The position numbers and the translations under genes are program-made. Shown piece after piece: positions 8,654 through 64,000 of a stretch of 64,000 nucleotides of DNA. The DNA lies in NCBI GenBank assembly GCA_951406725.2, contig OX597831.1, positions 35,712,001-35,776,000 on the forward strand. Reading direction: 5' to 3'. The DNA is from Octopus vulgaris. Its lineage: Eukaryota. The notes beneath the pieces were generated by a model. That model saw only the letters and a list, made by a program, of their open reading frames with translations, ran no database searches and was not told the origin of the DNA. The number at the start of each line of letters is the position of its first letter. Position 1 is the stretch's first letter.

Positions 8654-9068
8654 CTCTTTTACTCTTTTACTTGTTTCAGTCATTTGACTGAGGCCATGCT
8701 GGAGCACCACCTTTAGTCAAGCAAATCGACCCCAGGACTTATTCTTTGTAAGCCTAGTACTTATTCTATTGGTCTCTTTTGCTGAACTGTTAAGTTACGG
8801 GGATGTAAACACACCAGCATCGCTTGTCAAGTGATGTTGGGGGGGACAAACACAGACACACAAACATATACACACACATACATATATATATATACATATA
8901 TATATGATGGGCTTCTTTGAAGTTTCCGTCTATCAAATCCACTCACAGGGCTTTGGTCAGCCCAAGGCTATAGTAGAAGAAACTTGCCTAAGGTGCCACG
9001 CAGTAGGAATGAACCCGGAACTATGTGGTTGGTAAGCAAGCTACTTACCACACAAGCACTCCTGCACC
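8654..9068 (-). mobile_element. tRNA-derived SINE family A (full length)
   Basis: Head TGTGTGGTAAGTAGCTTGC..GGTTCATTCC, ACCTTRGGCAAG core, internal TA/TG microsatellite, tail GGTGCTCCAGCATGGCC..GAAACAAGTAAAAGAG. Confidence 0.85.
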
Positions 9069-11096: not shown

Positions 11097-11527
11097 AAAA
11101 GACCTGTTGAGTCAAGTAAAACCAATATTGTAGCTGGGGTTGGTGCCCTCTGGCTGGCTCCTGTGCCAATGGCACTTCAAAGGCACCATCTGAATGTGGT
11201 CGAAGCCAGGTCTGCCTGACTGGCTACTGTGCTGATGGCATGTAAAAAACCACCAACTGATTATGACTGATGCCAGTGCCCCTCTGACTGGCTCTTGTAC
11301 CAGTGGCACATAAAAAGCACCATCTGAATGTGGATCATTGCCAGGCCTGCCTTACTGGCTCCTGTGCCGGTGGCATGTAAAAAAAAAGGTTGGTGTTAGG
11401 AAGGGCATCCAGCTGTAGAAACTCTGCCAGACCAGATTGGAGCCTGGTGCAGCCGCTGGCTCTTCAGACCTGTCAAAAAGTCCAACCTATGCCAGTATGG
11501 AAAACGGATGTAAATCGATGATGATGG

Positions 11528-18899: not shown

Positions 18900-19010
18900 T
18901 ATAGATATAGTTAATCCAAACATGAAAACACAAAGAGAAAACACAACAACGTGAGGACGTGGAACAAGTATAGTATTATTGGACGCTCAGGAAAGAAGAA
19001 AAGAAGGAGG

Positions 19011-19045
19011 GTTTAACGTTTCGAGTGAAGCTCTTCGTCAGAAAC
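19011..19045 (-). ncRNA. Minimal type I hammerhead motif within a ~215-bp (TA)n-flanked element (18910-19125)
   Basis: GTTT-CTGACGA-A-GAG-CTTCA-CTC-GAAA-CG-TT-AAAC. Confidence 0.7.
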
Positions 19046-19141
19046 ATAGGAAATGAAAGATCCAAAGAAAGGAAGACGGAGGAAAAAAAATCGCCAACGG
19101 TACACACACGGTCACATTTTCAGTCATATATATATACACAC

Positions 19142-19188
<47 letters not shown>

Positions 19189-19189
<1 letters not shown>

Positions 19190-19583
19190 TAGCAGTATCG
19201 CCCGGCGTTGCTCGGGTTTGTAAGGGAAATAATTATATAAGCATTTTTAGAGATGTAAAGTATAATAGCCATCTCAATATGGCTAACCACAAAGGGGGAG
19301 GGGTGTTACTGTAGCTTTTTACGTTCTGAGATTTAATAATAAATTTTAGAGAGTTACTTCCCTTATATATGTCAAAAATGGATTAAAAATGGGAAAAATT
19401 GATGGTAAATTTTTTTTTAAATCGTAGACTCATCGTAGACGCGCGCTAATACCCAGACGGTCTCGATATGAATCACGACTATAAGATACCCGCTTTTGGT
19501 TAAACTGCACCGCAAAATGTGGGAGTAGTTAGGAATCTAAATCGTAGGAGACAGACACACAACCTCACTTTTATATATAAAGA
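19189..19583 (-). mobile_element. Non-autonomous Helitron
   Basis: Minus strand starts A|TC and ends with the CCCGAGCAACGCCGGG hairpin, 8 nt, then CTAG|T: canonical Helitron termini. Confidence 0.75.
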
Positions 19584-19745
19584 TTTCCTCTATTTACATA
19601 ATATTGAGGTATCTTTCTTTCTTTTGTTATCTTACTGTTTTTACCAATATACATATATATATATATATAAATATATATATAGTTACAGAGATGTACTTGC
19701 ATAGCAAGTGACTTGATCTGAGATCGTGTGCTGGAACGAAAACAG

Positions 19746-20004
19746 TTGCAGCGTTGAAGGTGTTTATAAGCCATTTAAGAAACACACAAAAACCGTTAGA
19801 TTCACTTCAACATTTAAATTTAATTTGTCAAAATATTTTCGTCGCTTTGAGACCGCGACCTGTTAGCACGATATTTTTGTCAGTGAACAGGTCGCGGTCT
19901 CAAAGCGACGAAAATATTTTGGCAAATTAAATTTAAATGTTGAAGTGAATGTAACGGTTTTTGTGTGTTTCTTAAATGGCTTACAAACACCTTCCACGCT
20001 GCAA
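19746..20004. repeat. Long palindrome (119-bp arms, 21-bp spacer) carrying a G3-C8 hammerhead
   Basis: Arms 19746-19864 and 19886-20004 are near-perfect reverse complements; bordered by (TA)n. Confidence 0.9.
19876..19926 (+). ncRNA. Minimal type I hammerhead, G3-C8 compensatory core variant
   Basis: TTTGTCA-GTGAACA-G-GTCGC-GGTCTCAAA-GCGAC-GAAA-ATAT-TT-TGGCAAA; 7-bp helix I, 5-bp helix II, palindromic AATATT helix III. Confidence 0.7.
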
Positions 20005-20613
20005 TATATATATACACACACATATATATATGTATGTATGTGTGTATATATGTATGCATGTATGTGTGTGTGTGTGCGTGTCTGTGCTTGTGATTGTCCT
20101 CCACCACTGCTTGACAACGAATGTTGGTTTGTTTACACCCCTGTCACCTAGTGGTTTGACAAAGGAAACAGATAGAATAAGTACAATGCTTACAAAAATA
20201 AAACTGGAGTTGATTCATTAAACTACAATTCTTCAAGGCATTGCCCCAGCATGGCCACAGACCAATGGCTGGAAAAAGCAGAAGAATAAAAGAATACATT
20301 CTCTGCTTTGGTCTTATGTTCACCCTCACACACACACACACGCGCACACACACACACACACACTCACACACACGCACGTTAGCTTACAATTTTATTTATA
20401 TATTTGTGTGTGTATGTGTGGAAAGAGGAAGTGGGAGGCAGAGTGAAAGAATCACTCACTACAGTAAGTGAATTACTTTCGTTTTATTCGTTGCCCACTG
20501 TGTGTGTGTGTTTGCATGTGGTGTAAACCAGACTAAGAAAAGCATTTGACACACACACCAGAATGTGAGTTTTCTGTAAATTTTGCTTAATTGGAGTTTA
20601 AATTTTAAAAACT

Positions 20614-20677
20614 GGAGCTGGCATGACGCGATGCATTGTACTCTTGGACCTGGCATGACGCGATGCATTGTACTCTT
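20614..20677. repeat. 32-bp tandem duplication
   Basis: GGA(G/C)CTGGCATGACGCGATGCATTGTACTCTT present twice. Confidence 0.9.
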
Positions 20678-20771
20678 AAAACTGCTAGGTGAATTGTAAT
20701 TGAAGAAATCCTATATTGTAGATTTGTATAACTCCCAAAGGGAGGCAGATAAAATCTGCCTTTTATAATAA

Positions 20772-20839
<68 letters not shown>

Positions 20840-20857
20840 ATATATGTATACGTGCAT

Positions 20858-21732
20858 ACTCAAGAGTATAAGTGCCGTGACAGAAAAGTTGGATTTAAGA
20901 AGCATCAGATGTGGTGTGCAAGAGAGACGACTGCACTGGTATGGTCATATGGTGAGAATAGATGAGGATAGCTGTATGAAAGAGTGTCACACCCTAGCAG
21001 TTGAGGGAACCTGTGGGAGAAGTAGACCCCAAAAAAACAGGGATGAGGTGGTCAAGCATGACCTTCAAACATTAGGCCTCACCGAGGCAATGACTAGTGA
21101 TCGAGACATTTGGAAATATGCTGTGCTTGAGATGATCTAGCAAGCCAAGTGAGACCATAACCCGTGGCCTATGCCAGGTGTGTAACCAGCCCACTTATGC
21201 ATACCTTTCCTTCATTGGACACTAAATTCTGCTTGCAAAGGCCTGTTGAGGCAAGTGAAATTGAAATCAAAATCAAATTCAATGACAGCACCACATGACT
21301 GGCATCCGTGCCAGTGGAGCTCTAAGAGCACTATCCAAGTGTGATCATTGCTAGGGCTGCTGACTGGTTCCCATGCTGGTGGCATGTAAGAAGCACTATT
21401 TGAGTGTGATCATTACCAGTGTCGCCTTACTGGCACTTGTGCTTTTGGCACGTGAAAAACAACATTCGAGCGAGGTCGTTGCCAGTGCCGCTGGACTGGT
21501 TCCTGTGCAGGTAGCATGTAAAAAAACACCAATTGAGCATGGTTGTTGCCAGTACCACCTGACTAGCCCTCGTGCCAGAGGCACGTAAAAGCACCCACTA
21601 CCCTCTTGGAGTGGTTGGCATTAGGAAGGGCATCTAGCAGTAGAAACTCTGCCAGATCGGGCTCACCAGTCCTCTGTCAAATCGTCCAACCCATGCCAAC
21701 ATGGAAAGCGGACATTAAACAATGATGATGAT
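20858..21732 (+). mobile_element. 5'-truncated RTE-clade LINE (ORF C-terminus, 3' UTR and GAT tail)
   Basis: Peptide RRLHWYGHMVRIDEDS..VEGTCGRSRPQKNRDEVVKHDL..DRDIWK is typical of RTE C-termini; UTR carries ~50-bp repeats. Confidence 0.85.
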
Positions 21733-37215: not shown

Positions 37216-37612
37216 GGAGTGGCTGTGTGATAAGTAGCTTGCTTACCAACCACATGGTTCCAGGTTCAGTCCCACTGCGTGGCACCTTGGACAAGTGTCT
37301 TCTACTATAACCTCGGGCCAACCAAAGCATTGTGAGTGGATTTGGTAGACGAAAACTGAAAGAAGCCCGTCGTATATATGTATATATATATGTGCGTGTG
37401 TGTTTGTGTGTCTGTGTTTGTCCCCCTAGCATTGCTTGACAACCGATGCTGGTGTGTTTATGTCTCTGTCACTTAGCGGTTTGGCAAAAGAGACCGATAG
37501 AATAAGTACTGGGCTTACAATGAATAAGTCCTGGGGTTGAGTTGCTCGATTAAAGGCGGTGCTCCAGCATGGCCGCAGTCAAATGACTGAAACAAGTAGA
37601 AGAGTAAAGAGT
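37216..37612 (+). mobile_element. SINE family A (full length)
   Basis: Complete head, core and tail. Confidence 0.85.
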
Positions 37613-62089: not shown

Positions 62090-63130
62090 TCCTGGATATC
62101 TCCGGTTTAGCTTTGGATTTAAAATTCATATAAAGCATTTTTCTTTTTGCATTTTGTAGTTGATCATATTAGTCATTTATTTTTTTTTAGAAAAGTAATA
62201 TTTTGAATTTTCCATTTGCACAAATCTCTAGCTGTTTACAATATGAAACATTTCTATAAGAGACGAAGTTTTTTAATTTGCTGCTTGTTCACACTCATAC
62301 AGTTGTTAAGTTCTATTCCTGTTTCTCCAATGTAATTCTCTTTGCATTGAGGCTATGTAATGCGATGATATTTTATGTTTTGCCATTCAAGTTTGCCTTC
62401 ACCTTTAATTCCTTCCCATTTTTGAAACATTTTTTTCACACGTTCCACAACAAGAGTCGTCATAGTTTGTTACCTGAATTATTTCTTTCTCCAACATGAG
62501 TCTCACCCTTGTCGGGAGTCTCTTGAAGTTTGGTGGTTGCCTTCTGCCGTTGATTTGTGATCCTTTAGTTATTTGTCAGGCTAAATGTAGGATGTGGTTT
62601 CTAGGATTATGGTTGACTACAAACGAAATATTTGTGTTTGTGCTTTTATTTTTACTCTCAGTGTTAGTGTTTTCTTTTTAAGTCAGACAATGGGACTTCT
62701 TTTGCTTTGATTATGACATAATTTATTAGGATTTGGTGGGTATTATTGTTTCAGAGGGAACATGTACCGTTTCATTCATTTCCATAGTGAAATGGATCGA
62801 TTCATCAATGCTCTTTACTCTTTTACTTGTTTCAGTCATTTGACTGTGGCCATGCTGGAGCACCACCTTTAATCGAGCAACTCGACCCCGGGACTTATTC
62901 TTTGTAAGCCTAGTACTTATTCTATCGGTCTCTTTTGCCGAACCGCTAAGTGACGGGGACATAAACACACCAGCATCGGTGGTCAAGCGATGTTGGGGGG
63001 GACAAACACAGACATACAAACATACAGGCACACACACACACACACATCTATATATATATATATATATACGACGGGCTTCTTTCAGTTTCCGTCTACCAAA
63101 TCCACTCACAAGGCTTTGGTCGGCCCGAGG

Positions 63131-63594: not shown

Positions 63595-63760
63595 TGGCTG
63601 TGTGGTAAGTAGCTTGCTTACCAACCACATGGTTCCGGGTTCAGTCTCACTGCGTGGCACCTTGGGCAAGTGTCTTCTACTATAGCCTCGGGTCGACCAA
63701 AACCTTGTGAGTGGACTTGGTAGACGGAAACTGAAAAGAAGCCTGTCGTATATATGTATG

Positions 63761-63793
<33 letters not shown>

Positions 63794-64000
63794 TTGTCCC
63801 CCCCCCCCAACATTGCTTGACAACCGATGCTGGTGTGTTTACGTCCCCGTAACTTAGTGGTTCGGCAAAAGACCCCGATAGAATAAGTACTAGACTTACA
63901 AAGAATAAGTCCTGGGGTCGATTTGCTCGACTAAAGGCGGTGCTCCAGCATGGCAGCAGTCAAATGACTGAAACAAATAAAAGAGTAAAAGAGAGTAAAA
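63595..64000 (+). mobile_element. SINE family A (young, near full length)
   Basis: Head, core and GTAAAAGA tail with CpGs retained. Confidence 0.85.

What the first reader, a model, noticed from the sequence alone, without database searches (positions are those of the whole stretch)
19746..20004. G3-C8 compensatory hammerhead variant at the centre of a 259-bp palindrome
Seen: GTGAACA replaces CTGANGA while helix I (TTTGTCA/TGRCAAA, 7 bp), helix II (GTCGC/GCGAC) and GAAA-ATAT-UU are intact. The inversion breakpoint falls inside the core, so only the plus arm is complete. Established: positions 3 and 8 form a tertiary base pair and the swapped G3-C8 pair is compatible with catalysis. Inference: a natural covariant that a standard CUGANGA search would miss, and the best single piece of evidence here that the motifs were selected.
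Basis: partly seen in the sequence, partly recalled or inferred. Interest (0 to 1): 0.7.

Follow-up and report, generated by a model that had tools for sequence, protein, structure and literature searches.

The report
Swapped-core hammerhead riding a Helitron
This hairpin is two head-to-head stubs of a Penelope-type jumping gene whose hammerhead-shaped RNA, predicted but not shown to cut itself, has its central base pair flipped (G-C where related elements have C-G or U-A); this particular copy was multiplied as cargo of what is likely a second, rolling-circle DNA transposon, so the copy itself says nothing about selection.

Summary
GTGAACA sits at 19883-19889 in a complete minimal type I hammerhead layout. 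The arms are 3' ends of a Penelope-like element with RT and GIY-YIG ORF, about 13,400 genomic matches. G3-C8 is the family state: 46 of 53 independent arms, no C3-G8 copy. The evidence for selection is between families: two related families in this genome keep C3-G8, five metagenome relatives have C-G (4) or U-A (1), and helix letters change while pairing stays. This copy proves nothing alone: it is one of 726 sharing one junction inside a Helitron-like carrier, and its mirror arm is predicted to bury the ribozyme. Against an obligatory cut: copies come from uncut, apparently capped RNA, none of 84 starting at the cut site. Cleavage is untested. I found G3-C8 in print only as a lab mutant, but key papers were not held. 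The scan noted this family before (e1-8670522, e1-9922890).

The parts
19189..20773 (-). Non-autonomous Helitron-like carrier that holds the palindrome as cargo: 5' TC end at 20773, an inner 5'-like end at 19583, hairpin at about 19201-19216 and 3' CTAG at 19192-19189
   Evidence: 30 of 30 fetched best matches share these flanks; CTAG end in 29 of 30 and far end in 29 of 30, with different outer flanks; direct head-to-tail junctions in L004, L008, L011, L014, L028; 726 copies of the central junction
19683..19864 (-). Left arm: 5'-truncated 3' end of the Penelope-like element (parent positions +26 to +206), starting at A6 of the core and ending in the long tail
   Evidence: Alignment to the parent copy L195
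19683..19745 (-). 63-base tail present on one arm only
   Evidence: Two modes of 3' ends in 84 independent arms: 36 at +143 to +151, 46 at +197 to +208
19865..20004 (+). Right arm: 3' end of the same element from about +7 to +144, with the whole hammerhead and the short 3' end
19876..19882 (+). Helix I, 5' strand
19883..19890 (+). Core G3 U4 G5 A6 A7 C8 A9 plus one extra G
19891..19909 (+). Helix II (5 bp, G10.1-C11.1) with 9-base loop; the loop differs between subfamilies
19910..19919 (+). G12 A13 A14, self-complementary AATATT (A15.1 to U16.1; predicted helix III between two molecules) and U17; predicted cut after 19919
   Evidence: dimer model from PMC4209133 (inferred)
19920..19926 (+). 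Helix I, 3' strand (this copy has a G-U where most copies have A-U)

Best explanation
The palindrome is a head-to-head pair of 3' ends of a Penelope-like retroelement, carrying a minimal type I hammerhead whose 3-8 pair is G-C, likely kept by selection for conditional self-cutting (cutting untested), and this copy is passive cargo of a likely Helitron. Shown: the layout; the link to an RT plus GIY-YIG ORF about 1 kb upstream in long copies; G3-C8 as the family state; C-G and U-A at the same place in relatives; the shared carrier. Inferred: a promoter at the element's end starts a capped RNA 22-23 bases before G3; the element's RT starts inside that RNA at one of two sites (about +147 or +207) and copies back to the cap, giving about 205-base copies and, with a second priming on the other strand, inverted pairs with one long and one short arm in TA-rich targets. 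Inferred: one motif cannot close helix III, so cutting would need two motifs pairing through AATATT, or the element's protein, and would act on tandem read-through transcripts, not on the short RNAs that became these copies. Inferred: G3 is tolerated because position 17 is U, which gives only a G-U rival pair. One such pair inserted into, or was captured by, a rolling-circle element and was then multiplied as DNA about 700 times; read-through RNA of it would fold into one long hairpin and not cut.
For: Parent: 1,010 copies extend 5'; five of ten fetched stretches hold the same RT plus GIY-YIG frame ending about 980 bases before the motif. Family state: 46 of 53; both positions changed in only 20 places, none C3-G8; no other letter at 3% or more at G3 or C8 in contigs of 4 runs. 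Covariation: sister family B (57% aa, sister to this family at 100/99) has C3-G8 with different helix I and II letters that still pair; family C has nearly the same helices and differs in the core only at 3 and 8; metagenome relatives L256, L258, L260, L261 C3-G8, L257 U3-A8. Lab data: PMC9901934, PMC11167929, PMC3884650. Template: 28 of 84 arms start at -2 to +4; 24 of 42 copies ending at +1 have an extra G where the parent has C or T (flank G 11%, p about 1e-12). Carrier.
Against: No cleavage assay and no raw RNA reads. None of 84 arms starts at the cut site (+59; nearest +54, +56, +64), so there is no genomic trace of cutting. About 40% of 386 copies with G3 but not C8 have G8 (40 of the first 100 listed), roughly eight times the reciprocal G3-to-C change (10 of the first 100 of 190); a G3-G8 core should be dead, and I cannot say whether such sources transposed or the site is a mutation hotspot. 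Family B has C at position 9 and L260 has G at 4, so this clade's cores drift at other conserved sites. Only one G3-C8 lineage was found here (one search found no second one, with a narrow pattern). The folding program pairs G3 with U17. In the anole element the ribozyme is not needed for insertion in vitro. No autonomous Helitron or empty site was looked for.
Confidence: 0.7

Rival explanations
1. The motif is a vestige. Cutting became dispensable in this lineage, C3 changed to G, and C8 followed by drift or by weak selection on folding; the family spreads without a working ribozyme.
For: Templates were uncut; excess of G3-G8 copies on several subfamily backgrounds; ribozyme mutants do not affect insertion in vitro and no RNA ends were seen at the cut site in the anole element (PMC11167929); Naiads thrive without canonical hammerheads (PMC8557442 passages).
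Against: Of all double changes, the one fixed is the one that restores activity in lab mutagenesis; all other core letters and both helices are intact across subfamilies while loop II varies; G3-G8 copies are no older than T8/A8 decay copies (p = 0.55) and absent from the subfamily with the short loop II (0 of 40, against 30 of 69 C8 copies).
Confidence: 0.2
2. The letters are held by an overlapping non-catalytic job: a downstream promoter element just behind the start at +1, or a folded handle for the RT. The hammerhead shape is inherited but the G3-C8 pair is incidental.
For: The core lies at +23 to +30 of the inferred start site; Penelope has an internal promoter with a downstream element (PMC2377424 passages).
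Against: A DNA promoter element would not explain Watson-Crick pairing of 3 with 8 in three forms, nor helices that change letters and keep pairing. In family B the short copies reach 60-90 bases further 5', so the spacing to the start is probably not kept.
Confidence: 0.07
3. This palindrome is kept for a function of its own at this locus or in the carrier (for example a ribozyme-processed hairpin RNA).
For: Many copies are identical over 130 bases (40 of 40 scored).
Against: Flanks, microsatellites and a SINE-like piece are shared just as well (97-99% over 1.1 kb); the right arm lacks the first six bases of the inferred start; the predicted fold buries the core.
Confidence: 0.03

Closest known systems
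Minimal type I hammerheads of metazoan Penelope-like elements (Cervera and de la Pena 2014, PMC4209133; main text parts 1-2 of 4 and supplement file 2 parts 1-2 of 3 read; supplement file 1 not available)
   Same: Place in the pLTR; extra base between 9 and 10.1; G10.1-C11.1; palindromic 15-16 segment; thousands of solo and opposite-strand copies
   Different: 3-8 pair is G-C; their 56 listed motifs have C-G, U-A (2) or U-G (1), none G-C; the extra base is G here, H in their consensus; no cephalopod in their list
Natural U3-A8 core variants (Perreault et al. 2011, PMC3088659; passages)
   Same: Natural covariation at 3-8; one relative here (L257) is U3-A8
   Different: G3-C8 is not in the passages seen; figure 5 and Dataset S1 were not seen
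Engineered C3G/G8C rescue mutants (Roberts et al. 2023, PMC9901934, passages; Frangieh et al. 2024, PMC11167929, parts 1-2 of 4; Kalweit et al. 2013, PMC3884650, passages)
   Same: Same swapped pair; active or partly active
   Different: Here it is the natural state of a family with about 13,000 copies, in a U17 context
Poseidon element of the green anole (PMC11167929)
   Same: Two RT start sites giving an optional tail about 110 and 170 bases behind helix II; AT-rich targets; uncut RNA as template
   Different: Different clade (linker CxxxCxxC here); its core is C3-G8 and overlaps the ORF start; cap-like G and sharp 5' ends were not in the parts read
Canonical Helitrons (definition as given in PMC4067079, passages)
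   Same: 5' TC, 3' CTAG, hairpin near the 3' end, A/T target, tandem arrays
   Different: Non-coding composite with two 5'-like ends and a retroelement palindrome as cargo; no Rep/Helicase partner identified

Membership tests
Minimal type I hammerhead of PLEs | Core U4 G5 A6, A9, G12 A13 A14, A15.1-U16.1, H17 | tested here: met
Minimal type I hammerhead of PLEs | C3 and G8 as letters (CUGANGA) | tested here: not met
   G3 and C8; 0 hits for the C3-G8 version
Minimal type I hammerhead of PLEs | Watson-Crick complementarity of 3 and 8 | tested here: met
   G-C here; C-G in B, C, L256, L258, L260, L261; U-A in L257
Minimal type I hammerhead of PLEs | Helices I and II, extra base before 10.1, palindromic helix III segment | tested here: met
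   pairing kept with other letters in relatives
Minimal type I hammerhead of PLEs | Site-specific self-cleavage (as dimer or with protein) | not testable with these tools
   Only contigs were available; no copy starts at the cut site
Rfam hammerhead families | Gathering score | tested here: not met
   0 matches in the window
Penelope-like element, EN+ | Single ORF with RT and C-terminal GIY-YIG upstream of the repeat | tested here: met
   YVDD and VY..YIG..R..EH motifs read in L193-L195, L197, L198; best homologue named RT-domain protein; Pfam gave no hit; only 5'-truncated frames of this family were seen (longest 671 aa)
Penelope-like element, EN+ | Inverted 5'-truncated partner and optional tail on one end | tested here: met
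   description in PMC8557442
Neptune clade | CX2-5CxxC linker between RT and EN; microsatellite targets | tested here: met
   CQSNCAVC in the L195 frame; TA-rich flanks
Neptune clade | Placement with reference Neptune rather than Nematis RTs | not tested
   No named reference sequences were held; tree has unnamed relatives only
Helitron (non-autonomous) | 5' TC, 3' CTRR, hairpin about 11 bases from the 3' end | tested here: met
   (hairpin weak, -4.5 kcal/mol as DNA)
Helitron (non-autonomous) | Insertion between A and T without target duplication | tested here: inconclusive
   Ends abut TA-rich flanks in most of 30 loci; no empty sites compared
Helitron (non-autonomous) | Autonomous Rep/Helicase partner with the same ends | not tested

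The most novel reading that the evidence does not exclude
An active, unreported natural G3-C8 hammerhead: a retroelement lineage crossed the dead C3-G8 to G3-C8 valley (the excess G3-G8 copies being traces of sources with a broken pair), kept a ribozyme that cuts only tandem read-through RNA, and meanwhile seeded more than ten thousand solo copies from uncut capped short RNAs by internal RT priming. Three pair types in one clade give a natural series for testing what Penelope hammerheads are for.
Probability: 0.45. Interest if true: 0.62.

Novelty: new variant of a known kind. Interest (0 to 1): 0.45.

Why it matters
The C3-G8 swap is the textbook proof of the hammerhead's tertiary pair, known to me in print only as a lab mutant. 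A family with about 13,000 copies that carries it naturally, beside relatives with C-G and U-A, extends the natural core consensus and shows what CUGANGA-based searches miss. The copies also speak to an open question, the job of Penelope hammerheads: the RNAs that were copied were uncut and apparently capped, which limits the models to cutting of tandem precursors or to no cutting at all. As a caution, it shows that near-identical copies can be cargo of another transposon and carry no signal of selection.

Tried and rejected
Rfam at gathering score: nothing. Pfam on the 671-aa frame: nothing at E 0.1. Identity among best DNA matches as a sign of selection: rejected, they are one carrier. The 5' boundary as a splice acceptor (it reads like branch point, pyrimidines, AG): considered; disfavoured because the base before +1 is G with varied bases before it, as expected for a copied cap, and no shared upstream exon was seen; not excluded. 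The arm as an ORF start: only short frames by eye, not pursued. G3-G8 copies as the old intermediate: not shown. A second G3-C8 family in this genome: a pattern that excluded this family's neighbouring letters gave 475 hits against 179 control, and the recurring strings in the first 100 were a tRNA-like SINE; that pattern would miss families with similar helices. Expression and RNA ends: no RNA holder listed; contigs cannot show ends. A stretch with three direct copies 3.4 kb apart (L191) held no ORF of 150 aa. Five of ten metagenome loci (L259, L262-L265) showed no motif; some end at or inside the ORF. Papers wanted but not held: Lunse 2017 on about 150,000 PLE hammerhead variants, Przybilski and Hammann 2007 on 3-8 exchanges, Hammann 2012 review; any of them, or unseen supplements and figures, could list a natural G3-C8.

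Full report
1. Observation. The arms are 19746-19864 and 19886-20004, 119 nt, 97% complementary, 21 nt apart, with four mismatched positions. The + strand carries a complete minimal type I hammerhead layout: helix I 19876-19882 with 19920-19926, core GTGAACA 19883-19889, one extra G at 19890, helix II 19891-19909, GAAA 19910-19913, a self-complementary six-base segment to U16.1 at 19918, and U17 at 19919. The mirror arm begins at A6. Rfam finds nothing in the window. The insertion is longer than stated: the left arm has a 63-base tail to 19683.

2. This copy is cargo. The 40 best-scored of 720 candidates in the own genome are identical over 130 bases, and all 30 fetched share not only the palindrome but the flanks, 94-99% over about 1.1 kb. 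The shared unit is 19189-20773. Read on the minus strand it begins TC and ends in a small hairpin and CTAG; 29 of 30 loci have each end, with different outer flanks, and five have direct head-to-tail junctions. These are the marks of canonical Helitrons as defined in PMC4067079 (passages). The central junction occurs 726 times. An RNA across the palindrome is predicted to fold into one hairpin (-195.6 kcal/mol) that pairs the core from A6 on. So this copy is probably inactive, and its identity to others reflects recent DNA transposition.

3. The family. The 19-base core pattern has 13,385 matches with up to two mismatches (control 9); a downstream anchor has 14,627. Of 91 arms picked by that anchor on the first 35 Mb of contig 1, without regard to the core, 7 are carrier-borne and 84 are not; 53 reach across the core and 46 of them are G3-C8, the other 7 being seven different changes. 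The C3-G8 version has no match; both positions are changed in 20 places, none C-G. Contigs of four runs under four organism labels show no other letter at 3% or more at G3 or C8, while loop II varies (the labels may be one species). Copies are about 205 bases, lie in TA-rich targets, and often stand head-to-head with one long and one short arm; 3' ends fall in two groups, 36 at +143 to +151 and 46 at +197 to +208. This matches the two internal RT start sites and the tail of the anole Penelope element (PMC11167929, parts 1-2 read) and the inverted partner described in PMC8557442 (passages).

4. The parent. 1,010 copies extend further 5'. Five of ten stretches fetched around such copies hold the same open frame with RT and GIY-YIG motifs and a CxxxCxxC linker, ending about 980 bases before the motif. 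Pfam gives no hit. The best homologue, P0001, is named an Octopus vulgaris RT-domain protein, 57% identical; a piece of it matches this genome at 98-100%, so the host is that octopus or a close relative (inference). The linker and microsatellite targets point to the Neptune clade; I did not test placement against named references.

5. Covariation between families. P0001 belongs to a second family (B) in this genome, with open frames up to 1,312 aa (150 scored of 3,947 candidates). At the homologous place in its 3' UTR is a hammerhead with C3-G8, C at 9, the same extra G, G10.1-C11.1 and UU, and helices of other letters that still pair; the sequence behind it and the tail are recognisably homologous. 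A third family (C; L266, with an endonuclease remnant upstream; a decayed copy in L095) has almost the same helices as ours and the core CTGAAGA, so it differs in the core only at 3 and 8. Of ten metagenome relatives, five show the motif behind the ORF: C3-G8 in L258 and L261, U3-A8 in L257 (found by scan), C3-G8 in L256 and L260 (read by eye, each with another core change); five show none. In the RT tree our family and B are sisters (100/99) and each of three other pairs holds a C-G member (11 rows, two distant loci as outgroup; family C had too little ORF to include). So C-G is ancestral, G-C is derived, and the pair is Watson-Crick in all eight families or loci where a motif was seen. This, not the single copy, is the evidence for selection. 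It rests on one origin of G-C.

6. What the templates were. 28 of 84 arms start at -2 to +4 around one point 22-23 bases before G3 (nine more scored at +16 reach further 5' but differ from the reference subfamily there); none starts at the predicted cut product (+59; nearest +54, +56, +64). Among 42 copies that end exactly at +1, 24 have a G in front where the parent has C or T (flank G content 11%, p about 1e-12; loci chosen for 5' extension were left out). An untemplated G is linked to copying of an mRNA cap (PMC9341517 passage). I infer a polymerase II start at +1, as Penelope has an internal promoter (PMC2377424 passages), and that short copies come from uncut capped RNA primed internally. 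A single motif has no stable helix III, and such motifs are thought to cut as dimers with low activity (PMC4209133) or with help from the element's protein.

7. Would it cut? In a full pairwise mutagenesis the G-C swap is the only rescuing double change in this part of the core (PMC9901934 passage); in a Penelope hammerhead it partly rescues. G3-C8 works better when position 17 is not C (PMC3884650 passage, data not shown there); here 17 is U, so the rival pair is G-U, which the folding program does form. I put activity under suitable conditions at about two in three. Against: no genomic trace of cutting, and an unexplained excess of G3-G8 copies. Of 386 places with G3 but not C8, the first 100 listed are 44 T, 40 G, 16 A (hand count); of 190 with C8 but not G3, 61 A, 29 T, 10 C (hand count). 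The 40 G8 copies are on several subfamily backgrounds, enriched on one (17 of 40 against 3 of 21 T8 copies), no more diverged than T8/A8 copies (p = 0.55), and absent from the short-loop subfamily. Minor sources with a broken pair and a mutation hotspot both fit.

8. Novelty. Natural U3-A8 is known (PMC3088659 passages; PMC4209133). None of the 56 motifs in Cervera 2014 Fig. S3 is G3-C8. Full-text searches for hammerhead with G3-C8, G3C8, GUGANCA, C3G or G8C, for C3 and G8 covariation and for Penelope, hammerhead and octopus gave only lab mutants. Lunse 2017, Przybilski 2007 and Hammann 2012 were not held, and figures and some supplements were unseen, so absence from print is not established. 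After my analysis I looked up the scan's notes: the same family was reported from other pieces of this genome and G3-C8 motifs from other genomes; these are unchecked AI notes and not independent support. What this locus adds is the Helitron-borne subfamily, the cap-like G and the G3-G8 excess.

9. Verdict. Real feature; new variant of a known kind; interest 0.45. The element, its place, the palindrome and the tail are ordinary Penelope biology. The swapped pair is a true natural covariant whose activity is untested.

Noticed in passing
window 19041-19000, minus strand (element about 18900-19125): A canonical minimal hammerhead (CTGACGA, extra A, short helices) of a different repeat, directly beside the Helitron-like carrier.
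   Followed up: no
L278 (G000:C18:50366000-50375999), L233, L253: Very young sister Penelope-like family B with open frames of about 1,310 aa in tandem units of about 4.58 kb; its hammerhead has C at position 9 in place of A.
   Followed up: partly
L266 position 2111; L095: Older family C with a canonical core and helices close to this family's; the nearest C3-G8 relative.
   Followed up: partly
G000, 386 places: G3-G8 copies are about eight times as common as the reciprocal change at position 3; unexplained.
   Followed up: partly
parent positions about +100 to +115 and +155 to +165 (window 19958-19970 and 19722-19733): GTGTGTT behind the ribozyme can pair with the tail's ARCACAC in both family A and family B; a candidate RT-binding fold around the first priming site (read; partly in the fold).
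   Followed up: no
window 20320/20321: The window's carrier copy lacks about 390 bases (a variable tandem segment) present in L002 and most other copies.
   Followed up: no
window 20058-20296: A diverged piece of a common SINE-like repeat (about 70% to 8655-8904, 37372-37608, 62814-63068, 63748-63992) is also carried inside the Helitron-like unit.
   Followed up: no
L045, L046, L191: Copies of this retroelement end inside other duplicated or tandem units (L191: three copies 3.4 kb apart, no ORF), so it has been carried along more than once.
   Followed up: no
window 21327-21591 and 11150-11383: Arrays of a 66-67 base unit inside another repeat.
   Followed up: no
L256: Metagenome relative whose hammerhead has GAAU in place of GAAA (U15.1-A16.1) and whose ORF holds long Thr/Ala/Asn/Ser repeats.
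   Followed up: no
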